A stretch of DNA of 32,000 nucleotides, taken from positions 4,500,001-4,532,000 of the forward strand of contig NC_008312.1 in NCBI RefSeq assembly GCF_000014265.1. The letters are read 5' to 3'. The notes beneath the pieces were generated by a model, which was not told where the DNA came from, did no database searches, and was given only the letters and a program-made list of their open reading frames with translations. Both the position numbers and the translations under genes were made by a program. The DNA comes from Trichodesmium erythraeum IMS101 (GTDB lineage: Bacteria; Cyanobacteriota; Cyanobacteriia; Cyanobacteriales; Microcoleaceae). Below, in pieces: positions 1,365 to 31,796 of the stretch (positions within the stretch are counted from its first letter, which is position 1; each line of letters begins with the position of its first letter).

Positions 1365-2900
1365 TTAGGTGATATTTTTTGATATTTTAGACAGATACTT
1401 GTGAATCTTTAAATATAAAGATCCAGATAGCTTTGGGGCTTTTAGTATTTGTCCATAACAGAAGATATAAGATCTCTCTGATAATATTTCTGGGGAAAAC
1501 CTTTTCAATGTTTACTGACTACTGTATATGATTATACCTTATAGTTTGCCATTTCTTAATAATCTCTTCATGAAATCCTCTGCTACTTGTGTTAGACTAA
1601 TTTTTTGTCCAAAACAATGACCATCAATATATCAATGAGAAGTAAAGGTTCTGATAACCTGAGAAATAAGTGTTAAGAAGTATATCCTGTACAAATGCTA
1701 AATTACGTAAATGATGATTATCTGTACTTGGAGTCAGATAACTTCCTTCTACTTGAATAGAGCCTGGCAAAATTTGAGCAACACTTTCTTTTCTTGTGCC
1801 GAATTCGCTAAATTTTTAACTAAATTGTATGTAGGAGCTAAGAAATAATCTGGTATGTTTTCATTTCCAGGTTGCTAGGTAGGAAAAACCTTGATTTTAG
1901 CTTACCAAATTCTCTGCAAAGATTTATCAATTCGTAATTCAGAAATACGGCCTGGAGCCACCGCGTCACAAACAGTATTAATTGTCTGCTCAGGATCTAC
2001 AGGCATACTTAAAATATCTGCATTAGGCAAACCATAAAAATTAGCGATCGCCCCCATAACCAAAACATCAGTCACAACTAATTCACCAAAACCCAACTTT
2101 TAGCGCAACTGACCCATAATAATTTTGTGGAGTAAACTTACTGATATTTTTCGTCCTTGCTCAGGATCAACAAATGGTTACTCATCACAGAATCTATCTC
2201 TGAAGCGCTCGCCTTCACAAAAGGAGATAATTCAACTGTTACCAATCTACTTTCCGAGTGAGATATAACTGGTAAATTAAAATGAGAATCAACTGTCGTA
2301 TCCCCATGACTAGGAAAATATTTAGCCGTGGTCAACCCTGGATATTTTTGAGCGCCTCAAAGAAAAACTCTTGAGAATTGACCAACCGAAGCCGTCGTTT
2401 CTCCAAAAGCTCGAATATTAATGACTGGGTTATCAGGATTATTATTTACATCTACCACTGGAGCCAATACCAATTCCAACCAATAGCCACAGCTTCTTGA
2501 GCTGTAATAGCTCCCATAGTTTCAGCATAACTGTTGGGCTCTTCTTTCAGATCAGTTTGAACAATAGTAGCGATCACCATTAGTGGAGGAAACTAAGTTA
2601 CCCCAGAAAGCCTTTTAGCAACTCCTTTCTGAACATCAGCAGCTAACAGCAAAGGAATTTTTGCCCTATACTAAATTTCTTGGATAGGAGTTACCAAGTC
2701 TATAGCACTTCCACCCGCAAAAACTACCTCTCTAATGCCCAAGTCTTCTACCCAAAATGAAAGCTTGCTTTAATGCCCAAGTCTTCTATCCAAAATGAAA
2801 GCTTGCTTTTCGGGAGATCTCAGTCTGAATAATGAATTTGATAGTCAAACCAATAGCCAGAGGCCATCAATGCGGCCATAGGATCAACTTTTTATGCTAA
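1365..2900 (-). pseudogene. Decayed glycoside hydrolase family 3 gene (NagZ / beta-glucosidase-related glycosidase type)
   Basis: Minus-strand translation gives GH3 blocks spread over three frames: MAALMASGYWFDYQIHY, AKIPLLLAADVQKGV, MGAITAQEAVAIG, LAPVVDVNNNPDNPVINIRAFGET, TTAKYFPSHGDTTVDSHFNLPV (GH3 K-H-F-P-G-H-G-D region), GFGELVVTDVLVMGAI, MPVDPEQTINTVCDAVAPGRISELRIDKSLQRIW, and a C-terminal YIFCYGQ block ending at TAA 1365-1367. The blocks are separated by multiple stops and frameshifts. The 5' limit is approximate. Confidence 0.75.
2734..2809. repeat. 38-bp tandem duplication (x2, 1 mismatch) inside the GH3 pseudogene
   Basis: AATGCCCAAGTCTTCTA(C/T)CCAAAATGAAAGCTTGCTTT at 2734-2771 and 2772-2809. 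The length is not a multiple of 3, so it is itself a frameshifting lesion. Confidence 0.9.
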
Positions 2901-17946: not shown

Positions 17947-18867
17947 ATGGAATTACAAGACAAAGAATACACAGTAGATACTAGTCAGTTATTAGTGGCT
18001 AGTGAAAAATTTGGCAGTGCTGATATTTACGGACAAAATGCTAAATCAATATTAAATAAAGCTACTGGTTTTATTAAAGCTTATGATTTTACTTTGAATC
18101 CTTATCGGGGTTGTCAATATGGTTGTACTTATTGTTATGCTGCGGCTTTTAGTCCTAATGAAAAAAAACGAGATGAGTGGGGAAAATGGGTTTTAATTAA
18201 AGAAAATGCGGCGGAAGTTGTAGAGAAAGAGTTGATGAGATGGCAGAAGAAAAATTATGATAAATTACCTAGTATTTATATGAGTAGTGTCACAGATCCT
18301 TATCAACCAATAGAGTCTAAAACTCAATTAACTCGGAGATTATTAGAAGTTATGTTAGAATATCGACCAATTTTAGTTATCCAAACTCGTAGTCCGATGA
18401 TAACGAGGGATATTGATCTTTTGCAACGGTTTAAAAATCTCCGAGTTAATATGAGTATTCCAACGGGTAGTGAGCTAGTAAGAAAAGATTTTGAACCTCA
18501 AACACCTAGTATTAAAGCTAGACTTAATGCTATGAAAAAAATCAAAAAGGAAATTCATAATTTCACAGGTTATTTGCCTAAACTTTCTATTACTATTACT
18601 CCTTTACTGCCGACTTTACCAGAAGAACAAGAAAGTTTTATTAGGCAACTAAATTTTGTAGATAGAGTTGTCATTCAAGATTTTCATGTTAGTCATAAGG
18701 GCTCCCTGGTAGCTAGCACTCGTGATGCAGCTATAGATATGAAAAAAAAGTACGAATGGTGGTACAGTAACCAACATGAAAATTATCAACAATTCAAAGG
18801 TAAGTTGCTAGAAATACTCAGTGATGTAGAAGTTAAGGAAGGTAAAGCTGGATTTACTTATGAATGA
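17947..18867 (+). CDS. Radical SAM protein, SPL/DNA-photolyase-like (COG1533-type)
   Basis: LNPYRGCQYGCTYCYA carries the CxxxCxxC cluster motif in the context typical of SplB-like radical SAM proteins. 306 aa. Confidence 0.8.
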   Translation: MELQDKEYTVDTSQLLVASEKFGSADIYGQNAKSILNKATGFIKAYDFTLNPYRGCQYGCTYCYAAAFSPNEKKRDEWGKWVLIKENAAEVVEKELMRWQKKNYDKLPSIYMSSVTDPYQPIESKTQLTRRLLEVMLEYRPILVIQTRSPMITRDIDLLQRFKNLRVNMSIPTGSELVRKDFEPQTPSIKARLNAMKKIKKEIHNFTGYLPKLSITITPLLPTLPEEQESFIRQLNFVDRVVIQDFHVSHKGSLVASTRDAAIDMKKKYEWWYSNQHENYQQFKGKLLEILSDVEVKEGKAGFTYE

Positions 18868-19091
18868 CTAGGTCACAAATTTTTGGCAGATTTATAAGTT
18901 TATACTTTATCTGGAAATAAGGGGATAATTCTCTGGCAAATTAAATACTAAAAATAATTATATCTTCTACTGAAAGGTCCAGAATATGGAAATTATAAAG
19001 GTAAAAAAATTAGTAATTTAATCAACATAAAAATTATCAACAATTTTCAGATAAGTTAATACAGGTGTAAATAATTTAGCAATAAAATAAT

Positions 19092-19349
19092 TTGAGAGAA
19101 TATTTACTAATGAATAATAAAATCACAAATTTTTGCCGTTCTATCAAATTTTGGTTTGCCCTAAAACAAGGAAATATTTTTTTGGCAAATAAAACACTAA
19201 AAGCTATTGAAAGTTCGGGAGCAAAATTATCTCCTTTAGAGAAATTATATCAAGACAAGCTGAAGTTTCAAGAATCTTTAAATGATAAAGATAGGGAAAT
19301 TAGCTATTTAAGCACGGATCTTAGAAAAACTGTTGATAAATTAGATTAA
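19092..19349 (+). CDS. 85-aa ORF, probably the severed N-terminal part of the downstream methyltransferase-like gene
   Basis: It is in the same frame as ORF 19407-20444 and separated from it only by TAA 19347-19349. The 19 codons between the two ORFs contain no further stop. Confidence 0.4.
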   Translation: MREYLLMNNKITNFCRSIKFWFALKQGNIFLANKTLKAIESSGAKLSPLEKLYQDKLKFQESLNDKDREISYLSTDLRKTVDKLD

Positions 19350-20522: not shown

Positions 20523-20568
20523 TTAGTTTATGGACAGAATACTTATTAGTTTATGGACAGAATACTTA
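20523..20568. repeat. Perfect 23-bp tandem duplication (x2) ending 1 nt before a start codon
   Basis: TTAGTTTATGGACAGAATACTTA occurs at 20523-20545 and again at 20546-20568. The ATG of the next gene is at 20570. Confidence 0.95.
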
Positions 20569-23133: not shown

Positions 23134-23571
23134 ATGTTGATTAAAAATGAACTTTTAGAAATAGAAACTGCTCCTGGAATTGAAATATACAATATTACTC
23201 CCCAAGTTATTGATATCTTAACTGCAACTGGTATAAATGATGGGCAGGTAATTGTATTTTCTAGACACACAACTACTGCTTTAGGGATTAATGAAAATGA
23301 GGAAAGATTAATTGAAGATTTGAAAGTATACTTAAGAAAGTTAGCGCCAGAATCTGACAAGTATCTTCATAATGATTTGCATTTGCGAGATGTTCCTCCG
23401 GATGAACCAATTAATGCTCATTCTCATCTTATAGCAATGACTTTAAATAATAGTGAGGTGATTCCTATTATGGATGGAAAATTAGCTTTAGGAACTTGGC
23501 AGTCAGTATTATTTTTTGAATTAGATGGACCTCGAAAAAGAAATGTATTAGTGCAGGTTACTGGTAGATAA
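23134..23571 (+). CDS. yjbQ: YjbQ/UPF0047 family protein (secondary thiamine-phosphate synthase enzyme)
   Basis: DITP...G.V.VFS.HTTTAL.INENE, NAHSH and LALGTWQSVLFFELDGPRKR are characteristic UPF0047 blocks. Confidence 0.85.
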   Translation: MLIKNELLEIETAPGIEIYNITPQVIDILTATGINDGQVIVFSRHTTTALGINENEERLIEDLKVYLRKLAPESDKYLHNDLHLRDVPPDEPINAHSHLIAMTLNNSEVIPIMDGKLALGTWQSVLFFELDGPRKRNVLVQVTGR

Positions 23572-24096
23572 AGTTTGATTATCTCAGTGTCTAATAAAAG
23601 GAAATAGGCAGTAGTAAAAATCCTTACTCTTGATTTATTTTTTTCTTTTTTGAACTGGTATTATTCTCAGACAATATATATTCTAAATTTCCACTTCAAG
23701 CAAGTTGGACGAGTTGGGAAATTATTAGTTTTCGCCAAAGTTTTAAGAGAGAGAAATTTTTATCAGGAAATTAGCAACTATATTTTGAAAAACTCAAAAA
23801 GTTACTGTTATTGTAGAGGATATTCAAATACTTGAAATTAAAGAGGCCTGTTTTGAGTATATCTGAGCACACCTTTTCCATTATGTTTATAGTATCATGT
23901 CAAGTGTTTTTAATCAACCACTTTGAGGATATTTTTAATTGAGTTAATTTAAATTTATTCCCTGGTTCATAACAGCCCAAAAACTGGCGAATTTTCTCTA
24001 AATTTGTCCCCAATTAGGGAAGCTTAAGTTTATAAAAAACTTTTAAATACTGACTAAAAATAAATTCAAGTGGAAGAGATAAATAAGGAAGGCTTT

Positions 24097-25353
24097 ATGT
24101 TGAAACAAATAACTTTGGAAAACTGGAAAAGTTTCCGTCATGCAGAATTATATATTGACCCATTAACGGTTTTAATTGGTACAAATGCTAGTGGGAAATC
24201 TAATGTTGTAGATGCCTTAGATTTTTTGAATAGTATGATGCAACGTGCTTCAGTAGAAACAGTATTAATAGGCGATCGCTTTACTCCAGGTATTAGAGGA
24301 GGAATTGAGTGGGCAGCTAGAAAACCAGAAACAAAATTTAGTTTTCAAGTATTAGTAGATGGGAAAGATAAAGGGAATGATTATCTTTATAAAATCACTG
24401 TAGAAAATACAAATGCTGTACAGGTAGTAGATGAATCTTTAACTTTAATTGATAGTCAAAATATCTCGGATAATAATTCATGTCAGCAACTTTTTTTTAT
24501 ATCCTTTACTTATGAAAAAAATAGAATAATTTATAAACATTATGAAGCAGAAAAAGAAGTTATAAAAAAATTTTATCCTACTCCTAATCCTTGGTTGGGT
24601 CATTCTACAGATAAGATTCCATTCTATGAATTTGATGATGTTAATCAAATGATGTCTGCGCAAATTATGGTTCCAGAGATTCTCAAAAATATTTTTATTT
24701 TAAATCCAATACCTTCGCAAATGAGGTATCCTTCACCTCTATCAACAAAGTTAGAAAGAGACGGTTCTAATATTGCTGGAGTTTTAGCAGCATTACCACA
24801 ACCAATAAAAGCTCAAGTAGAGGAAAAACTATTAAAATATCTGGCAAAATTACCAGAAGGAGATATGCAAAAAGTATGGTCTGAATCTGTGGGAAGATTA
24901 GGTAGGGATGCCATACTTTACTGTGAAGAAATCTGGGATTTTAACAAAGACCCAATGATAGTTGATGCTAGTGGAATGTCAGATGGAACTTTGCGATTTT
25001 TAGCAATTTTAACAGCAATGTTAACTCAACCAGAAAATAGTCTAATTGTCATAGAAGAAGTTGATAATGGTTTACATCTTTCTCGCGCTAGATTACTATT
25101 AGAAATGCTAAGAGAAATTGGTCAACAGCGTCAAATTTATATCTTAGTTACAACCCATAATTCTGCTTTATTAGATGAGCTAACTCCAGATTTTATTCCT
25201 TTTGTAATGGTAGCTTATCGAGATAAACAAACCGGAGAAAGTCAGTTAATTCCTTTAGAGGATATTGGAGATTTACCGAAGTTAATGGCATCAGGAACTT
25301 TAGGTAAAATTGCTAGTAATAGTTTGATTGAAAAAAGTCTTAAAGTAAATTAG
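24097..25353 (+). CDS. ABC-type / SMC-like ATPase (AAA_21/AAA_15-like), candidate defence-module ATPase
   Basis: MLKQITLENWKSFRHAELYIDPLTVLIGTNASGKSNVVDAL carries the Walker A motif. Also present are the signature-like MSDGTLRFLAIL, Walker B LIVIEEVDNGLH and H-loop VTTHNS. ATG 24097 is preceded by AAGGAAGG; the track ORF begins at GTG 24070. No nuclease domain is fused. Confidence 0.8.
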   Translation: MLKQITLENWKSFRHAELYIDPLTVLIGTNASGKSNVVDALDFLNSMMQRASVETVLIGDRFTPGIRGGIEWAARKPETKFSFQVLVDGKDKGNDYLYKITVENTNAVQVVDESLTLIDSQNISDNNSCQQLFFISFTYEKNRIIYKHYEAEKEVIKKFYPTPNPWLGHSTDKIPFYEFDDVNQMMSAQIMVPEILKNIFILNPIPSQMRYPSPLSTKLERDGSNIAGVLAALPQPIKAQVEEKLLKYLAKLPEGDMQKVWSESVGRLGRDAILYCEEIWDFNKDPMIVDASGMSDGTLRFLAILTAMLTQPENSLIVIEEVDNGLHLSRARLLLEMLREIGQQRQIYILVTTHNSALLDELTPDFIPFVMVAYRDKQTGESQLIPLEDIGDLPKLMASGTLGKIASNSLIEKSLKVN

Positions 25354-26234
25354 ATAGCCGGAGAAAGTCAGTTAATTCATTTAGAGGATATTGGAGATTT
25401 ACCGAAGTTAATGGCATCAGGAACTTTAGGCAAAATTGCTAGTAATAGTTGATTGAAAAAAGTCTTAAAGTAAATTAGATAGCCGGAGAAAGTCAGTTAA
25501 TTCATTTAGAAGATATTGGAGATTTACCGAAGTTAATGGCATCAGGAACTTTAGGTAAAATTGCTAGTAATAGTTTGATTGAAAAAAGTCTTAAAGTAAA
25601 TTAGATAGCCGGAGAAAGTCAGTTAATTCATTTAGAAGATATTGGAGATTTACCGAAGTTAATGGCATCAGGAACTTTAGGTAAAATTGCTAGTAATAGT
25701 TTGATTGAAAAAAGTCTTAAAGTAAATTAGATAGCCGGAGAAAGTCAGTTAATTCATTTAGAGGATATTGGAGATTTACCGAAGTTAATGGCATCAGGAA
25801 CTTTAGGCAAAATTGCTAGTAATAGTTGATTGAAAAAAGTCTTAAAGTAAATTAGATAGCCGGAGAAAGTCAGTTAATTCATTTAGAGGATATTGGAGAT
25901 TTACCGAAGTTAATGGCATCAGGAACTTTAGGCAAAATTGCTAGTAATAGTTGATTGAAAAAAGTCTTAAAGTAAATTAGATAGCCGGAGAAAGTCAGTT
26001 AATTCATTTAGAGGATATTGGAGATTTACCGAAGTTAATGGCATCAGGAACTTTAGGCAAAATTGCTAGTAATAGTTGATTGAAAAAAGTCTTAAAGTAA
26101 ATTAGATGGCCGGAGAAAGTCAGTTAATTCATTTAGAGGATATTGGAGATTTACCGAAGTTAATGGCATCAGGAACTTTAGGCAAAATTGCTAGTAATAG
26201 TTGATTGAAAAAAGTCTTAAAGTAAATTAGATAG
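25232..26234 (+). repeat. Tandem array, 8 units of 125/126 bp; unit 1 is the native 3' end of the ATPase CDS and units 2-8 are extra copies
   Basis: Units start at 25232, 25358, 25483, 25609, 25735, 25860, 25985 and 26110, and the array ends at 26234. Each unit runs CCGGAGAAAGTCAGTTAATTC...AAAGTAAATTAGATAG and carries the last 41 codons, the TAG stop and 4 nt of spacer. Units differ by 0-4 nt. Confidence 0.95.
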
Positions 26235-26235
26235 T

Positions 26236-26842
26236 ATGAAAAAAGTGCTGATTATTGATACTTCAATTTTCTGTGTTTATTTAGGAGTAACTGGCAAAGA
26301 AAACTGTGGTTCTAAGGGTAATAAGTTGATAAAATTCAAGTAGATGAAAAACTGAAAAATTAGGAAGAAGAAAAAACGACATTTGTTTTACTTTTAGCAA
26401 CAATTATTGAAATAGGTAATCATATTGCTCAAGCATCAACAAAGCGTTATAAAATAGCAAAAAAAAAATTAGCTAATCTGATGAAATTAACTGCAGATAA
26501 CCCAACTCCTTGGGCAGCATTTATAGAACTATTAGTTTTATGGAATAGCAAAAAAAATTAGCTAATCTGATGAAATTAGCTGCAGATAACCCAACTCCTT
26601 GGGCAGCATTTATAGAACTATCAGTTTTATGGAATTCAGAAAATTTGAAGCAGTTAGCTGATGAATTTCCTAATTTTGCTAATCAAGGATTGGTCCTAGG
26701 AGATGCTACAATTAAACAGATTGCTAACTATTATAATAAGTGAGAAAATCAGGTAGAAATTTTGACAGGAGATAAAAGTTTAAAATCATATTAACTTCCC
26801 GAACCTCGGCTAATTCCTAGACGCAGAAGAGACAAGAATTAA
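26236..26842 (+). pseudogene. Decayed PIN-like nuclease gene, formerly abutting the ATPase gene
   Basis: Pieced together across frames: MKKVLIIDTSIFCVYLGVTGKENCGSKGNK / VDKIQVDEKLKN* / EEEKTTFVLLLATIIEIGNHIAQAS...LANLMKLAADNPTPWAAFIELSVLWNSENLKQLADEFPNFANQGLVLGDATIKQIANYYNK*ENQVEILTGDKSLKSY*LPEPRLIPRRRRDKN*. Acidic residues sit in PIN-like contexts (IIDTS, IIEIGN, LGDATI, LTGD). There are at least five lesions: one frameshift, three in-frame stops and one 91-bp duplication. Confidence 0.55.
26454..26635. repeat. About 90-bp tandem duplication (x2) inside the PIN-like pseudogene
   Basis: ATAGC(A)nTTAGCTAATCTGATGAAATTA(A/G)CTGCAGATAACCCAACTCCTTGGGCAGCATTTATAGAACTAT(T/C)AGTTTTATGGA at 26454-26544 (A-run of 10) and 26545-26633 (A-run of 8). 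Confidence 0.9.
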
Positions 26843-27032: not shown

Positions 27033-27262
27033 AATACCAGAAATTCCTCCAGTAACCAGAGCAATTTTTCCATCAAATTCGTTACTCATAATTTATGGTT
27101 GTGTAAATAACATTAAATTTGGGCAAAATTATCTAATCATTACTCAGATAAAATTAGTAATTATTCAAAAATAATCACTAATTATAAAAAATTTTTCTCC
27201 CAAAGAAAAAGGGCAAATCAGAGATTTTTTTTTCGGCTTCAATAGCTCAAAAAATAAATCAA
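27033..27262 (-). pseudogene. Fragment copy of the SDR gene 5' end (19 codons, MSNEFDGKIALVTGGISG) plus a copy of its upstream region
   Basis: 27033-27262 aligns colinearly by eye, at roughly 80% identity, with 28021-28250 (the first codons and upstream region of the intact SDR). The fragment start codon is at 27089-27087 on the minus strand, and the reading frame ends after about 19 codons. Confidence 0.8.
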
Positions 27263-27309
27263 AATACTCTCATAAAATACTCTATCTTAATCAAATAATA
27301 TAACTGCAA

Positions 27310-28077
27310 TTATTGCGCAATCAAACCTCCATCTATTCTGAGAGAATGACCAGTAATAAAACTAGCTGCATCAGAACATAACCAGACAACAGCATTGGCT
27401 ACTTCTTCTGGTTGACCAATACGACCAATAGGGTTTGCTGCTACTATTTTTGCTTTAGCTTCACTATCACCTATTTGGGCAAAAGCACGCTCAATCATAT
27501 CTGTTTGAATGAAACCAGGACAAACAGCATTAATTCTAATACCTGCTGTTGCTTGTTCCAGAGCAAGGGCTCTTGTTAAGCCTATTACACCATGTTTACT
27601 AGCACAGTAAATTGACGAATTAAGAGTACCAATTAGCCCTGCTATAGAAGCATTATTCACTATTGCTCCCCCGCCATTTTTTAACATTTCAGGAATTTGA
27701 TATTTCATCGATAACCAAACTCCTTTAAGATTAATATCAATTACCTGATTCCAATTTTCTTCAGTTTGCTCAATACTAGGTCCTATTATCCCTTCTATAC
27801 CTGCATTATTAAATGCATAATCTAAACTACTATAGGTATTAATTGTTTGATTCACTAAATTTTCAACTTCAATAGCTTGAGTAATATCTGTTTTGAAAAA
27901 GATAGCTTCGCTGCCAACTTCTTTAATCATTGCTACTGTTTCTTCACCTTCTTTTTCCCGGCGACTGGCAATAACTACTTTGGCTCCTTTCTTAGCAAAA
28001 GCTATAGCAGTAGCTCTACCAATACCAGAACTTCCTCCAGTAACTAAAGCAATTTTTCCTTCAAATTCTTTACTCAT
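27310..28077 (-). CDS. Short-chain dehydrogenase/reductase (classical SDR, FabG/glucose-1-dehydrogenase-like)
   Basis: TGGSSGIGRA (cofactor motif), NNAG and the catalytic S...YCASK are present. 255 aa. Confidence 0.9.
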   Translation of the reverse strand: MSKEFEGKIALVTGGSSGIGRATAIAFAKKGAKVVIASRREKEGEETVAMIKEVGSEAIFFKTDITQAIEVENLVNQTINTYSSLDYAFNNAGIEGIIGPSIEQTEENWNQVIDINLKGVWLSMKYQIPEMLKNGGGAIVNNASIAGLIGTLNSSIYCASKHGVIGLTRALALEQATAGIRINAVCPGFIQTDMIERAFAQIGDSEAKAKIVAANPIGRIGQPEEVANAVVWLCSDAASFITGHSLRIDGGLIAQ

Positions 28078-28321
28078 AATTTATGCTTGCGTAAATAACA
28101 TTATATTTTATGTAAATTATCTTATCATGCCTCAGATAAAATTAATAATTCTTTTTTAATGGTCACTAATTATTAAAAAAATAATTCATTATAAAAAGGG
28201 CAAATTAGAAACTTCTAGCTACTTCAATAGCTCAAAAAATGAATAAAATTTATTTGGTGAAGACTTGATTAATCATAGAATAAAAGGGAGCTTTACTGCC
28301 TAGTTTTTTTAAAGTTATTTA

Positions 28322-28455
28322 TACTGTTTCTTTACTTTCTTTTTCCCTACGACTGGCAATAACTATTTTGGATATTTTTTTAGCAAAAGATATAGCATTA
28401 ACTATACCAATAGCACGACTTTCTCCAGTAATTAGGGTGGCTTTTCTCTCAAATT
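28322..28455 (-). pseudogene. Second, more diverged fragment of the SDR 5' region (about codons 4-48), no start codon
   Basis: 28322-28455 aligns with 27934-28067 of the intact SDR gene (TACTGTTTCTT.ACTTTCTTTTTCCC..CGACTGGCAATAACTA.TTTGG...). The Gly-rich motif region is degenerate. Confidence 0.7.
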
Positions 28456-29051
28456 ATGTAATTATATTTATGATGTATTTGTTTCAAAATATGATAGTAT
28501 ATAAAACTAATTAGCTATTAGCTTGTAGCATTTTTGTACCGAGATGTTCCGTAAATATCTAGCCTTCTGGCTTAGAACTACTTTAAAAGTTGTTAACAGC
28601 TCTTGATTCAAGCTTACGGCTATCATTATACCAGATGTTTTAGGAAGGTTTAAAATATATTTCTAAAGGTCACAATAAATAATCCTACTAACCAAAAAAA
28701 TAAGGTCTCAAGCTTCCCATTTGGATGAAAAAATACTCAATTCAGTATTTCAAGGCTATGGCTTCAGTCAGAGGTACTAATAACTGATAACTTAAATGAC
28801 TACTGATTTAATTTTCAGCATTTATCTAGTCTTTTAACTATGATATAAAAAAATTATCCTCAAATATATTTATAGCTACATCGATGCAGTAAATTGGTTA
28901 GAGTCTAAAATCAATTATGATGGTAGTTATTCTCTAGGAACTGAGGATTTAGCTTGTTATTATAAGGAGACTTATCTGTTGTATATATTTTGACTTCCGT
29001 AAATAAAATCATATAGCGATCGCCCTATTTGTCCCATAATTAATTTTGCCA

Positions 29052-31796
29052 ATGTCCTACTCTGTCCCAAAAATCTCAAAACCTGTCCTAGCTGAACCGG
29101 GGTCATCTTACAACAGCCATTCCCCAGAGTTGCAAAAGTTGGTAGAAGTCTTAGTTGATGTTCCTGTTAAAACTTCAACAGAAAATGCTGAAGAGTCTGT
29201 CCAAATACTCTCAAAATCTGTCCTAGCTGAACCGGGGTCATCTTATAATAACCATTCCCCAGAGTTGCAAGAGTTGGTAGAAGTCTTAGTTGATGTCCCT
29301 TTTCAAACTTCAACAGATGATGCTGAAGAAGAGGAAAAATTATTTACCTACAAAATACCTCCTGAACTGGACATTCAACCAGGAGACATTGTAATAGTAC
29401 CTTTTGGCAGACAACAAGTAGGAGGGATCGCTATCCGCAAAACCTCTAAACTACCAGAAGGTTTAAGTAGCGATCGCTTGAAAAATATATCAGATATTAT
29501 TACTAAAGGTTTTTTCCCTGCCACTTATTGGCAACTCCTGGAAAAAGTCGCTATCTATTATCAAACACCACTTATTAAAGTAATTCGCGCAGCTCTACCA
29601 CCAGGGCTACTCAAAGGTAGTCAACGACGCATTCGCATCATCGAAGCAGCAATACCAACAGGAGGAGAAATTTTTCTCAATGCAAATGCTCAAAAAATTC
29701 TGGAAATTCTGCAAAACTCCAAAACTAAAGACTACACCTGGAAATACATTCAACGTCAAGTCAAAGGTGCTGAAAGAGGATTAAAAGATTTACTACAACG
29801 AGGTTGGGTAGAAAGTTATCTCGAACCCCCTTCCCCACCAAAACCAAAACTCAGACAAGCAGTTACTCTAGTTGCTCAAACCCCACCCAAAGATTTAACC
29901 CCACGCCAACAAGAAGTCATGGAAGTATTACGCCAAAGTGGAGGGGAAATGTGGTTAACAGAATTACTTAACACTTGCAAAACTACGACTTCTGTGGTAA
30001 AAAAACTGGAAGAAAAAGGCTATGCTGTCATTCAGGAACAAGAAATATTACGCCGAGAACAAGGCAGAGGTAATACCAGAGATGAAATAAAAATGCTTAC
30101 ATCCTACCAAACAGAAGCATTAACAACAATTACCAAGATTCAAGAATTTGCTCAAGTTTTGCTACATGGAGTTACAGGATCTGGAAAAACAGAGGTATAT
30201 TTACAGGCGATCGCTCCCATCCTCGAAAATGGTAAATCTGCTCTTGTACTAGTTCCCGAAATTGGTCTCACTCCTCAACTGACCGATAGATTTCGCGCTC
30301 GTTTTGGCAAAAAAGTATATGTTTACCATAGCGCCTTATCTGCTGGAGAACGTTATGACACTTGGCGTAACATGACCTGGGGTATTCCACAAATTATCAT
30401 CGGTACTCGTTCAGCAATTTTTGCCCCCCTGCCAAAATTAGGTCTAATTGTTTTAGACGAAGAACACGATAACAGCTTTAAACAAGACCGCCCTGCACCT
30501 TGTTATCACGCTCGCACTGTAGCGAAATGGCGAGCAGAATTAGAAAACTGTCCATTAATATTAGGTTCAGCAACTCCCTCTTTAGAAAGTTGGTTGGAAA
30601 CAAGAAAATACTATCAAGACAAAAAGATTCAAGCATCCCCCTATCTACTAGAAAATATAGACAAAAATGTTTCCCCAACAGGCAACACCCAAAATTTAAC
30701 ACCTAACACTTACTACCTATCATTACCAGAACGGATCCACTCACGACCGATGCCACCTGTCGAAATAGTAGATATGCGTCAACAACTACGACAGGGAAAC
30801 CGGACAATGTTTAGCTATCCTCTACAAGAAGCACTGCAAGAACTACAGGAAACAAAACAACAAGGAATTTTATTCATTCACCGTCGCGGTTACAGCACAT
30901 TTGTCTCTTGTCGCAGTTGTGGTCATGTAATGGAATGCCCCCATTGCGATGTTTCCCTTTCCTATCATTATACCCACGAAGGTGCAACTGAACTATTACG
31001 TTGTCATTACTGCAATTATAACGAATTACAACCACAACGTTGTCCTAAATGTGGTTCTCCTTTTTTCAAATTTTTTGGCAGTGGAACTCAAAAAGTAGCG
31101 CAGGAGTTAACAAGACAGTTTCCTGGCTTACGATATATTAGATATGATAGCGACACTACTCGCAAAAAGGATGCCCACCGAAATTTGTTAAATCAATTTG
31201 CTAATGGTGAAGCAGATTTATTGATCGGTACCCAAATGTTGACAAAAGGCTTAGATTTGGCACAGGTGACATTAGTAGGAGTCGTCTCTGCTGATGGGTT
31301 GCTACATTTTTCAGATTATCGCGCTAATGAACGAACTTTTCAAACATTACTGCAAGTAGCAGGTCGTGCGGGTCGTGGAGATAACCCAGGGCGAGTAATT
31401 ATTCAGACCTATACTCCAGAACATCCTGTGATTCAAGCAGTGCAACGTAATGATTATGAGTCTTTTGTGGAAACAGAATTACAAGGAAGAGCAGAATTGC
31501 ACTATCCTCCTTATGGGCGGTTGATTTTATTACGTTTGAGTAGTTATGATCCGACTGAGGTAGCTGTGACTGCTCAAGAGTTGGCAAGTGTGTTGAGGGA
31601 AAAAGAGGGAAAGGAAAAATATGATTTATTGGGTCCTGCACCGGCTCCTATTGCTAGAATAGCTAATCGTTATCGTTGGCAGATTTTGTTAAAGTTATTG
31701 TCTGGATATGAGAATGTACCTGATCTGACTCAGTTGAGTAATTTTTGTCGTCCTGGGGTAAGTTTGACTGTAGATGTTGATCCTATGAATTTGTGA
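29052..31796 (+). CDS. priA: Primosomal protein N' (replication restart helicase PriA)
   Basis: Walker A LLHGVTGSGKTEVYL, Walker B LDEEHD, the Cys-rich zinc region CRSCGHVMECPHCDVSLSYH...CHYCNY...CPKCGS, and the C-terminal GRAGRG are all present. ATG is at 29052; the track ORF starts at TTG 29046. Confidence 0.95.
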   Translation: MSYSVPKISKPVLAEPGSSYNSHSPELQKLVEVLVDVPVKTSTENAEESVQILSKSVLAEPGSSYNNHSPELQELVEVLVDVPFQTSTDDAEEEEKLFTYKIPPELDIQPGDIVIVPFGRQQVGGIAIRKTSKLPEGLSSDRLKNISDIITKGFFPATYWQLLEKVAIYYQTPLIKVIRAALPPGLLKGSQRRIRIIEAAIPTGGEIFLNANAQKILEILQNSKTKDYTWKYIQRQVKGAERGLKDLLQRGWVESYLEPPSPPKPKLRQAVTLVAQTPPKDLTPRQQEVMEVLRQSGGEMWLTELLNTCKTTTSVVKKLEEKGYAVIQEQEILRREQGRGNTRDEIKMLTSYQTEALTTITKIQEFAQVLLHGVTGSGKTEVYLQAIAPILENGKSALVLVPEIGLTPQLTDRFRARFGKKVYVYHSALSAGERYDTWRNMTWGIPQIIIGTRSAIFAPLPKLGLIVLDEEHDNSFKQDRPAPCYHARTVAKWRAELENCPLILGSATPSLESWLETRKYYQDKKIQASPYLLENIDKNVSPTGNTQNLTPNTYYLSLPERIHSRPMPPVEIVDMRQQLRQGNRTMFSYPLQEALQELQETKQQGILFIHRRGYSTFVSCRSCGHVMECPHCDVSLSYHYTHEGATELLRCHYCNYNELQPQRCPKCGSPFFKFFGSGTQKVAQELTRQFPGLRYIRYDSDTTRKKDAHRNLLNQFANGEADLLIGTQMLTKGLDLAQVTLVGVVSADGLLHFSDYRANERTFQTLLQVAGRAGRGDNPGRVIIQTYTPEHPVIQAVQRNDYESFVETELQGRAELHYPPYGRLILLRLSSYDPTEVAVTAQELASVLREKEGKEKYDLLGPAPAPIARIANRYRWQILLKLLSGYENVPDLTQLSNFCRPGVSLTVDVDPMNL
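29061..29330 (+). repeat. In-frame 135-bp (45-codon) tandem duplication at the 5' end of priA
   Basis: Unit 1 (29061-29195) encodes SVPKISKPVLAEPGSSYNSHSPELQKLVEVLVDVPVKTSTENAEE. Unit 2 (29196-29330) encodes SVQILSKSVLAEPGSSYNNHSPELQELVEVLVDVPFQTSTDDAEE. 35 of 45 residues are identical. Confidence 0.9.

What the first reader, a model, noticed from the sequence alone, without database searches (positions are those of the whole stretch)
25232..26234. Eight-copy head-to-tail array re-copying the last 41 codons + stop of the ATPase gene, wedging about 0.88 kb between two formerly abutting genes
The units are 125 or 126 bp long and start at 25232 (native, inside the CDS), 25358, 25483, 25609, 25735, 25860, 25985 and 26110. 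The array stops at 26234, one nt before the ATG (26236) of the next gene. Each unit encodes GESQLI(P/H)LEDIGDLPKLMASGTLGKIASNSLIEKSLKVN, then TAG, then 4 nt of spacer. Three linked differences define two haplotypes. Type A (GAGGAT / GGC / AGTTGATT, 125 bp, frameshifted) covers units 2, 5, 6, 7 and 8. Type B (GAAGAT / GGT / AGTTTGATT, 126 bp, frame kept) covers units 3 and 4. The native unit reads GAGGAT / GGT / 126 bp and has CCT where all extra copies have CAT. The order native-A-B-B-A-A-A-A implies several rounds of amplification or unequal exchange of already diverged units, not a single slip. Deleting units 2-8 restores ...AATTAGATAGTATG..., with the stop and the next start 5 nt apart, so the array has uncoupled a tight operon junction. 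It is not a CRISPR array (no spacers), and it is not a typical satellite or MITE because the unit is coding sequence. An array of a gene's own 3' end at the junction of an ATPase-nuclease pair is something I cannot match to a described feature class. It may be neutral decay, or it may have been selected because it silences or uncouples a toxic downstream nuclease.
Basis: seen in the sequence. Interest (0 to 1): 0.78.

Follow-up and report, generated by a model that had tools for sequence, protein, structure and literature searches.

The report
Tandem copies of a gene's tail
In the marine cyanobacterium Trichodesmium erythraeum, the last 126 bases of an ATPase gene have been copied head-to-tail eight times inside a decaying two-gene candidate phage-defence locus, which is most likely an ordinary by-product of this genome's habit of making and keeping tandem duplications.

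Summary
An exact 8.0-copy head-to-tail array of 125/126-bp units lies at 25232-26234. It re-copies the last 39 codons, the stop and 4 nt of the ATPase gene.

The window is Trichodesmium erythraeum IMS101, not Nostocales. The ATPase is Tery_2912. The downstream remnant is annotated as Tery_2913.

All T. thiebautii-like and Okeania orthologous loci carry one copy, with the junction TTAGATAGTATG. So the array did wedge about 0.88 kb into a 5-nt operon junction. Five other T. erythraeum-clade assemblies contain the unit-unit junction and two more break in the last unit. The array is therefore not an IMS101 artefact, but the copy number of 8 is unverified.

The gene pair matches the untested PADLOC candidate defence system PDC-M07, an ABC-type ATPase plus a PIN-fold protein. 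In IMS101 the PIN gene is dead: a frameshift, three stop codons and its own 89-bp duplication.

The units show no promoter-like or terminator-like site, no RNA structure signal and no ORF. The same window holds several other fresh or decayed duplications of gene ends. A 7-copy array carrying a gene's 3' part is already published for this genome.

Best reading: a neutral tandem duplication that was later expanded. It is a new member of a known kind and of low interest.

The parts
24097..25353 (+). Tery_2912, intact 418-aa ABC/AAA_21-type ATPase (PDC-M07A-like). An alternative GTG start lies at 24070.
   Evidence: ORF list. Pfam AAA_21 4.9e-30 and AAA_15 5.4e-20. PADLOC PDC-M07A 3e-157. Exact match to ABG52080.1, Tery_2912.
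25232..25357 (+). Unit 1, the native unit (126 bp). It contains 2 nt of codon 379, codons 380-418, the stop TAG at 25351-25353, and ATAG. It carries the ancestral C at unit position 22, plus GGT and TTT.
   Evidence: The ancestral states are shared with the orthologues in alignment A1.
25358..25482 (+). Unit 2, type A (125 bp): CAT, GGC and a 1-nt T deletion that creates a TGA stop.
25483..25734 (+). Units 3 and 4, type B (126 bp each, identical to each other): CAT, GAA, GGT, reading frame kept.
25735..26234 (+). Units 5-8, type A (125 bp each). Units 5, 6 and 8 are identical to unit 2. Unit 7 has an extra A->G at 26108.
26236..26842 (+). Pseudogene of the PDC-M07B / PIN-fold partner gene. Lesions: a 1-nt deletion near 26325 leading to a TAG, an in-frame TAG near 26353, a variable A10 tract, an 89-bp duplication, a TGA at 26741 and a TAA near 26790. 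The 57-aa ORF at 26570-26743 is annotated as Tery_2913.
   Evidence: Alignment to the intact 171-aa Okeania gene and to the T. thiebautii-like gene. PADLOC PDC-M07B 1.3e-50 for the Okeania orthologue. ABG52081.1. PIN fold.
26461..26635 (+). 89-bp x 2 tandem duplication inside the PIN pseudogene (97-98% identical, not a multiple of 3). It is absent from a second T. erythraeum-clade lineage.
   Evidence: TRF, the repeat finder family D5. L022, L024 and L026 lack it.

Best explanation
This is a locus-specific tandem duplication array (a bacterial minisatellite) with no function of its own.

Proposed history (inferred):
1. In the T. erythraeum lineage, after its split from the T. thiebautii-like clade, a 126-bp segment was duplicated in tandem. 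The segment runs from inside codon 379 of Tery_2912 to 4 nt past its stop codon. The join shows no microhomology.
2. The extra copy acquired C->A at position 22.
3. It diverged into two subtypes (A and B).
4. Repeated unequal recombination or replication slippage between the now-homologous units expanded it to 8 copies.

The left breakpoint lies inside the coding sequence and unit 1 keeps its own stop codon. The ATPase protein is therefore unchanged, and the only structural effect is that the partner gene's start is pushed about 0.88 kb downstream.

The array sits in a degenerating two-gene candidate defence locus (ABC ATPase + PIN) whose PIN gene is a multi-lesion pseudogene. Nothing opposes the array's persistence. 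Trichodesmium, which keeps about 40% non-coding DNA, generates and retains such duplications often.

Shown: the structure, its derivation from the gene's 3' end, the single copy in relatives, its presence in several T. erythraeum assemblies, the dead partner gene, and the lack of promoter, terminator or structure signals.
Inferred: the slippage/unequal-exchange mechanism and neutrality.
For: - Exact 8.0 copies with no spacer and no partial unit.
- The unit is 100% derived from the Tery_2912 3' end + 4 nt.
- All 16 non-erythraeum orthologous loci (T. thiebautii-like L001-L005, L019, L020; Okeania, Planktothrix and others L006-L013, L015) have one unit start. The seven of them that were aligned show the TTAGATAGTATG junction.
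- The unit-unit junction is present in L022-L026. Scaffold N-gaps or contig ends fall inside the array in L024, L025, L027 and L031. These include a lineage that differs from IMS101 at 7-13 of 1135 nt.
- The seven extra units share a derived A. The native unit keeps the ancestral C/GGT/TTT.
- The PIN partner carries at least 5 inactivating lesions.
- No sigma-70-like or terminator-like site lies inside the array.
- RNA folding z-scores are -0.67, -1.42, +0.45 and +0.19.
- No Rfam family matches in the window.
- The longest stop-free stretch in units 2-8 is 41 codons, and no ORF of at least 40 aa is listed there.
- Other gene-end duplications occur in the same 32 kb: the SDR 5' end twice (80% and 77% identical), the radical-SAM 3' end (70%, score 53 against a shuffle maximum of 29), PriA 135 bp x 2, and 89 bp x 2.
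- There is a published precedent in IMS101 (PMC4143802).
- The genome is known to be 40% non-coding (PMC4649490).
Against: - Neutrality is inferred, not measured.
- No transcriptome data could be consulted for this locus.
- Unit 1 has escaped homogenisation. This could reflect selection on the ATPase, and so a locus that is not entirely dead. The ORF is intact, with dN/dS 0.34-0.47.
- The order of events (array first or PIN death first) cannot be resolved.
Confidence: 0.8

Rival explanations
1. The array was selected because it uncouples or silences the toxic PIN nuclease by breaking translational coupling with the ATPase gene.
For: The ancestral junction is 5 nt. The partner protein has a PIN/VapC-like fold with invariant D8, E59, D126 and D149. 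The array and the PIN lesions are both shared by two T. erythraeum lineages, so the array could be the older event.
Against: The PIN gene has a frameshift, three stops and an 89-bp duplication, each sufficient to silence it. One duplication would already uncouple the genes, so eight copies are not needed. T. thiebautii-like relatives vary the PIN gene through a poly-A tract (A7, A9) without any array. There is no signal of selection on the units.
Confidence: 0.06
2. The array is a functional RNA-producing repeat, like the Tery_0080-adjacent array. Each unit, or the read-through transcript, would yield a non-coding RNA, for example one antisense or sense to the ATPase 3' end.
For: In IMS101, a 7-copy tandem array containing duplicated 3' parts of a neighbouring gene gives the most abundant RNA in the cell (PMC4143802). 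Most non-coding DNA in Trichodesmium is reported to be transcribed (PMC4649490). No terminator-like site follows the ATPase stop, so read-through is likely.
Against: There is no promoter-like site in the units on either strand. Folding is no better than in shuffled sequence. There is no Rfam hit. The unit has no sequence beyond the coding tail, whereas in the published array the transcript is attributed to 736-973-bp repeats that also contain sequence unrelated to the gene.
Confidence: 0.06
3. The array is a recombinational switch (contingency locus). Exchange between unit 1 and type A units would convert the ATPase from 418 aa to a 409-aa frameshifted tail (or P->H), toggling the activity of the system.
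For: Assembly L023 joins the unique left flank directly to a type A unit, which gives a 409-aa product. The homology needed for such exchange exists.
Against: L023 has flanks 100% identical to IMS101. It is probably an IMS101 culture metagenome in which a short-read assembler replaced the 1x C variant by the 7x A variant. The partner effector gene is dead, so there is nothing to switch. Unit 1 is intact in IMS101, L022, L024, L025 and L026.
Confidence: 0.04
4. The array is an assembly artefact: the true locus has one copy, or a very different copy number.
For: The copy number of 8 rests on one finished assembly. Short-read assemblies give 2 to more than 4 copies with gaps.
Against: Unit-unit junctions occur in five other assemblies from different samples. 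Two further contigs break in the last unit. Scaffolders placed N-gaps inside the array. The units are heterogeneous (4 sequence types), which artefactual expansion would not produce.
Confidence: 0.03

Closest known systems
Tandem repeat array next to Tery_0080 in T. erythraeum IMS101 (Pfreundt et al. 2014, PMC4143802)
   Same: It is in the same genome. It is a head-to-tail array of 7-8 units. Each unit contains a duplicated 3' part of the immediately adjacent gene. Internal units are near-identical and the edge unit is divergent.
   Different: Its units are 736-973 bp and mostly made of sequence unrelated to the gene. Each has a strong mapped TSS and yields a transcript of about 260 nt. The gene fragments lie on the strand opposite to that transcript. 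Here the units are 125/126 bp, made only of the gene tail, and have no promoter-like site.
Bacterial tandem duplication-amplification / minisatellite (VNTR) loci
   Same: A first illegitimate duplication is followed by homology-driven unequal exchange or slippage. This gives an integer number of head-to-tail copies, subtypes arranged in blocks, and less homogenised edge units (established knowledge of tandem-array evolution).
   Different: Copy-number polymorphism between strains, the operational hallmark of a VNTR, could not be measured because the other assemblies are collapsed short-read assemblies.
Mycobacterial MIRU-type intercistronic repeats (from memory, not tested)
   Same: They are tandem units of about 50-100 bp that sit in operon junctions and overlap the stop and start codons of the flanking genes.
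   Different: MIRUs are a family dispersed over tens of loci. This unit was found only at this one locus in all sequence examined, and it is simply the local gene's tail.
PADLOC candidate defence system PDC-M07; ABC ATPase + PIN architecture (HEC-03-like; Payne et al. 2024, bioRxiv 10.1101/2024.01.29.577857)
   Same: This is the gene pair that hosts the array. The ATPase matches PDC-M07A at 3e-157. The intact Okeania partner matches PDC-M07B at 1.3e-50 and has a PIN fold.
   Different: This describes the host locus, not the array. In the window the B gene is a pseudogene. PDC systems are untested candidates.
Diversity-generating retroelement TR/VR pairs (known in IMS101)
   Same: A repeat of about 120 bp coincides with the 3' end of a protein-coding gene.
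   Different: Only one of the five variable columns is an A versus non-A difference. The copies are in direct tandem rather than being a separate template next to a reverse transcriptase gene.

Membership tests
Locus-specific tandem duplication array / bacterial minisatellite | Head-to-tail copies without spacers, in an integer or near-integer number | tested here: met
   TRF gives 8.0 copies at 98% matches. Unit coordinates abut exactly.
Locus-specific tandem duplication array / bacterial minisatellite | The unit derives from local single-copy sequence, and orthologous loci have one copy | tested here: met
   One unit start in 16 orthologous loci outside T. erythraeum. The junction alignment is A1.
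Locus-specific tandem duplication array / bacterial minisatellite | Copy number varies between strains | tested here: inconclusive
   Other assemblies show 2, 2+gap or 4+gap units, or break at the array. These are short-read collapses, not measurements.
Tery_0080-type expressed tandem arrays of Trichodesmium | A tandem array adjacent to a gene, with each unit carrying a duplicate of that gene's 3' part | tested here: met
   compared with the description in PMC4143802.
Tery_0080-type expressed tandem arrays of Trichodesmium | Each repeat has its own transcription start and gives an abundant ncRNA | not testable with these tools
   No transcriptome data are held. The consensus scan found no promoter-like site inside the array.
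Tery_0080-type expressed tandem arrays of Trichodesmium | The unit contains additional sequence unrelated to the gene | tested here: not met
   The unit is the gene tail plus 4 nt of the native spacer only.
PDC-M07 candidate defence system (the host locus) | A PDC-M07A ATPase adjacent to an intact PDC-M07B gene | tested here: not met
   A is met at 3e-157. B is met for the Okeania orthologue at 1.3e-50. The window's B is a pseudogene with at least 5 lesions.
PDC-M07 candidate defence system (the host locus) | Anti-phage activity | not testable with these tools
   PDC systems are described as untested candidates (10.1101/2024.01.29.577857).
CRISPR array | Short repeats separated by unique spacers | tested here: not met
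   The units abut with no spacer.
DGR template/variable repeat | Differences confined to adenines of the template repeat | tested here: not met
   The variable columns are C/A, G/A, T/C, a T indel and A/G.
DGR template/variable repeat | An adjacent reverse transcriptase gene | not tested
   Only six window ORFs were scanned against Pfam. None of them was a reverse transcriptase.
Dispersed intercistronic repeat family (MIRU/MITE-like) | Copies at many unrelated loci | tested here: inconclusive
   There is no copy elsewhere in the 32-kb window or in the 31 fetched loci. There were 0 hits in the JGI metagenome contigs. The whole IMS101 genome could not be scanned.

The most novel reading that the evidence does not exclude
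The array is a maintained, functional element rather than debris. Either it is transcribed into a repeated RNA carrying eight copies of the ATPase mRNA tail, analogous to the hugely expressed Tery_0080 array. Or it acts as a recombination switch that toggles the ATPase C-terminus between 418 aa and 409 aa in polyploid Trichodesmium cells.
Probability: 0.07. Interest if true: 0.55.

Novelty: new member of a known kind. Interest (0 to 1): 0.24.

Why it matters
The array is a clean, datable snapshot of how Trichodesmium's unusually large non-coding fraction can grow. A gene end is duplicated, amplified and then left to decay. Fresh examples (98-100% identical) and old ones (70-80% identical) sit side by side in one 32-kb window.

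It also marks a candidate ABC-ATPase/PIN defence locus caught in the act of degenerating.

Practically, it is a likely marker for distinguishing T. erythraeum lineages. It is also a known trap for short-read assemblies, which collapse it, gap it or break at it. No new kind of biology is implied.

Tried and rejected
- CRISPR: rejected, there are no spacers.
- DGR TR/VR: rejected, the differences show no adenine-specific pattern.
- Promoter or terminator in the unit: none found by the consensus scan.
- Structured RNA: folding is not better than in shuffles on either strand. No Rfam family matches in the whole window.
- Hidden ORFs in units 2-8: the longest stop-free stretch is 41 codons, the type B copy of the tail itself.
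- Microhomology at the duplication breakpoints: none at the join (acaaa|CCGG and GATAG|tatg). The 89-bp duplication downstream, by contrast, appears by eye (not formally tested) to share a 3-nt AAT at its join.
- Finding the source genome through genome contigs and exact gene look-up: it was not returned. The source was identified instead by exact protein look-ups.
- Two scans of JGI metagenome contigs, one for the unit-unit junction and one for the CAT-type unit: 0 hits.
- Transcriptome evidence: no supplement is held for PMC4143802. No paper mentions Tery_2912 or Tery_2913. The supplements of PMC12090762 contain neither tag. Walworth et al. 2015 is not held.
- The L023 'recombinant ATPase allele': treated as a probable short-read artefact rather than evidence.

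Full report
**1. The observation**

Reading 25000-26500 and running Tandem Repeats Finder (25232-26234, period 125, 8.0 copies, 98% matches, score 1930) confirm the array.

The lengths are 126,125,126,126,125,125,125,125. Five columns vary:
- Position 22: C in unit 1, A in units 2-8.
- Position 29: A in units 3 and 4.
- Position 74: T in units 1, 3 and 4; C in the rest.
- Position 92: T deleted in units 2 and 5-8.
- Position 125: G in unit 7 only, at 26108.

Each unit holds 2 nt of the Thr379 codon, 39 full codons, TAG and ATAG, so '41 codons' is a slight overcount. The array is an exact integer number of units. The base before it (A) and the base after it (T) do not continue the repeat.

**2. 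The organism and the genes**

The ATPase's best protein matches are Trichodesmium (94-97%) and Okeania (81%). Exact look-ups place seven neighbouring proteins, and then the ATPase itself, in Trichodesmium erythraeum IMS101, a 7,750,108-bp chromosome.
- The ATPase is Tery_2912 (ABG52080.1, 'SMC protein-like').
- The 57-aa ORF at 26570-26743 is Tery_2913 (ABG52081.1).
- The window's G+C is about 31%.

The ATPase carries the AAA_21, AAA_15 and SMC_N domains and matches PADLOC PDC-M07A at 3e-157. The intact 171-aa downstream protein of Okeania matches PDC-M07B at 1.3e-50. PDC systems are untested 'phage defence candidates'. The same preprint notes ABC ATPases partnered with PIN proteins.

The B protein has no Pfam, NCBIfam or PDB sequence match. 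An AlphaFold model built from 30 homologues (pLDDT 87.5, pTM 0.82) finds almost only PIN/VapC domains in the PDB. The E-values are weak, 2e-3 and upward, at Foldseek probability about 1.0 and target-normalised TM 0.55-0.68. D8, E59, D126 and D149 are invariant in the alignment. 'ATPase-nuclease pair' is therefore reasonable for the ancestral locus.

**3. Relatives**

Syntenic T. thiebautii-like contigs (L001-L005, L019, L020) and Okeania loci have the ATPase stop followed 5 nt later by the partner's ATG. The sequence is ...TTAGATAGTATG.... These, together with loci from more distant cyanobacteria, each have exactly one unit start. The array is therefore derived, and it did split a tight junction.

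Contigs fetched through the neighbouring SDR protein belong to the T. erythraeum clade.
- L022 and L026 contain the native unit plus one type A unit.
- L023 contains two type A units.
- L024 and L025 (strain GBRTRLIN201) have scaffold N-gaps inside the array.
- L027 and L031 end inside the last unit.

This is what short-read assemblers do with a 1-kb array of near-identical 125-bp units. It shows that the unit-unit junction exists in independent samples.

L022, L024 and L026 differ from IMS101 at 7-13 of 1135 nt in the ATPase gene and lack the 89-bp duplication. They are therefore a separate lineage that still has the array. The copy number of 8 itself rests on the finished IMS101 assembly alone.

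**4. State of the locus**

Aligned to Okeania, the IMS101 partner gene carries these lesions:
- a 1-nt deletion that runs into a TAG;
- an in-frame TAG;
- an expanded A tract;
- an 89-bp (non-triplet) tandem duplication;
- a TGA and a TAA.

It is a long-dead pseudogene. The A tract is A7 in L020 (in frame), A9 in L001 and L022, and A10 in IMS101. L019-type alleles carry a premature stop in the ATPase.

The ATPase ORF in IMS101 is intact, with dN/dS 0.47 against the T. thiebautii-like gene and 0.34 against Okeania. That indicates some constraint or only recent relaxation.

**5. Does the array itself carry signals?**

- No sigma-70-like or terminator-like site falls inside 25232-26234.
- RNA folding of type A and type B units on both strands is not better than in shuffles (z -0.67, -1.42, +0.45, +0.19).
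- No Rfam family matches anywhere in the window.
- No ORF of at least 40 aa is listed in units 2-8. The longest stop-free stretch is 41 codons.
- The pattern of differences is not adenine-specific, so this is not a DGR.

**6. Context: this genome does this often**

The same 32 kb holds several other duplications:
- an 89-bp x 2 duplication (26461-26635);
- an in-frame 135-bp x 2 duplication at the PriA N-terminus (29061-29329, 90% identical);
- two decayed copies of the SDR gene's 5' end (27033-27265, 80%; 28282-28472, 77%);
- a decayed copy of the radical-SAM gene's 3' end including its stop (19019-19135, 70%; score 53 against a shuffle maximum of 29);
- small 38-bp and 23-bp duplications.

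A T. thiebautii-like relative has a 323-bp x 2.6 array where IMS101 has a single copy.

The literature already describes, in IMS101, a >6-kb array of 7 tandem repeats. Each contains a duplicated 3' part of the adjacent gene Tery_0080, and the array gives the most abundant RNA in the cell (PMC4143802). About 40% of the genome is non-coding (PMC4649490).

**7. Interpretation**

The most economical account is as follows.
- A tandem duplication of a 126-bp segment straddling the stop codon arose in the T. erythraeum lineage.
- The extra copy picked up C->A.
- It split into subtype A (T->C and a T deletion) and subtype B (G->A).
- Several unequal-exchange or slippage events then expanded it to native-A-B-B-A-A-A-A.

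Unit 1 keeps every ancestral state. This fits either selection on the ATPase or the usual poor homogenisation of edge units.

The array is best seen as neutral debris in a decaying locus (confidence 0.8). The rivals are:
- selected uncoupling of the PIN toxin (0.06);
- an RNA-producing array (0.06);
- a recombination switch for the ATPase tail (0.04);
- an assembly artefact (0.03).

L023 has a 'flank + type A' allele. Its flanks are 100% identical to IMS101, and short-read bubble-popping would produce exactly this error. I therefore do not count it as evidence.

**8. Verdict**

The feature is real and was accurately described. Its interpretation was over-reached. It is a new member of a known kind (tandem duplication arrays of gene ends in Trichodesmium). 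I found no published description of this particular locus. Interest is low, about 0.24.

Noticed in passing
window 26461-26635: An 89-bp x 2 tandem duplication (97-98% identical) lies inside the PIN pseudogene. It is present in IMS101, L023 and L025 (GBRTRLIN201) but absent from L022, L024 and L026. It is therefore polymorphic within the T. erythraeum clade.
   Followed up: partly
window 29061-29329: An in-frame 135-bp (45-codon) tandem duplication, 90% identical, sits at the N-terminus of the PriA helicase gene (29046-31796). PriA is called at 914 aa in the other T. erythraeum assemblies, so they probably carry the duplication too.
   Followed up: partly
window 27033-27265 and 28282-28472 (source 27897-28249): There are two decayed copies (80% and 77% identical) of the 5' end and upstream region of the SDR gene Tery_2914. 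One lies beyond the gene's 3' end and one lies upstream. The first is also present in T. thiebautii-like L001, so it is old.
   Followed up: partly
window 18768-18885 vs 19019-19135: A decayed (70% identical) duplicate of the 3' end and stop of the radical-SAM gene (17947-18867) lies about 250 bp downstream. This is an older instance of the same kind of event.
   Followed up: partly
L001 2967-3807 (homologous to window 23820-23997): The T. thiebautii-like relative has a 323-bp x 2.6 tandem array (95% matches) upstream of the ATPase, where IMS101 has one copy (86% identical).
   Followed up: partly
window 26459-26468; L001, L020, L022: The poly-A tract inside the PIN gene varies between lineages. 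It is A7 (in frame) in L020, A9 (+2) in L001 and L022, and A10 in IMS101. This is a hypermutable homopolymer that by itself switches the gene's reading frame.
   Followed up: partly
L019 1888-1893: A T. thiebautii-like ATPase allele has CAA->TAA at codon 378, just before the position where the IMS101 repeat unit starts. It gives a 377-aa product. Other 377-aa proteins in the same cluster (P0217, P0222) are on record from several contigs but were not inspected.
   Followed up: no
L001-L005 4027-5857 vs window 23134-23571: Between the ADH gene and the ATPase, T. thiebautii-like genomes carry an HSP70/MreB-like gene and a hydrolase fragment. T. erythraeum carries YjbQ (Tery_2911) instead. This is a local rearrangement between the clades.
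   Followed up: no
window 2733-2809 and 20523-20568: There are small perfect or near-perfect tandem duplications: 38 bp x 2 downstream of rbfA, and 23 bp x 2 ending 2 nt before the Tery_2909 start codon.
   Followed up: no
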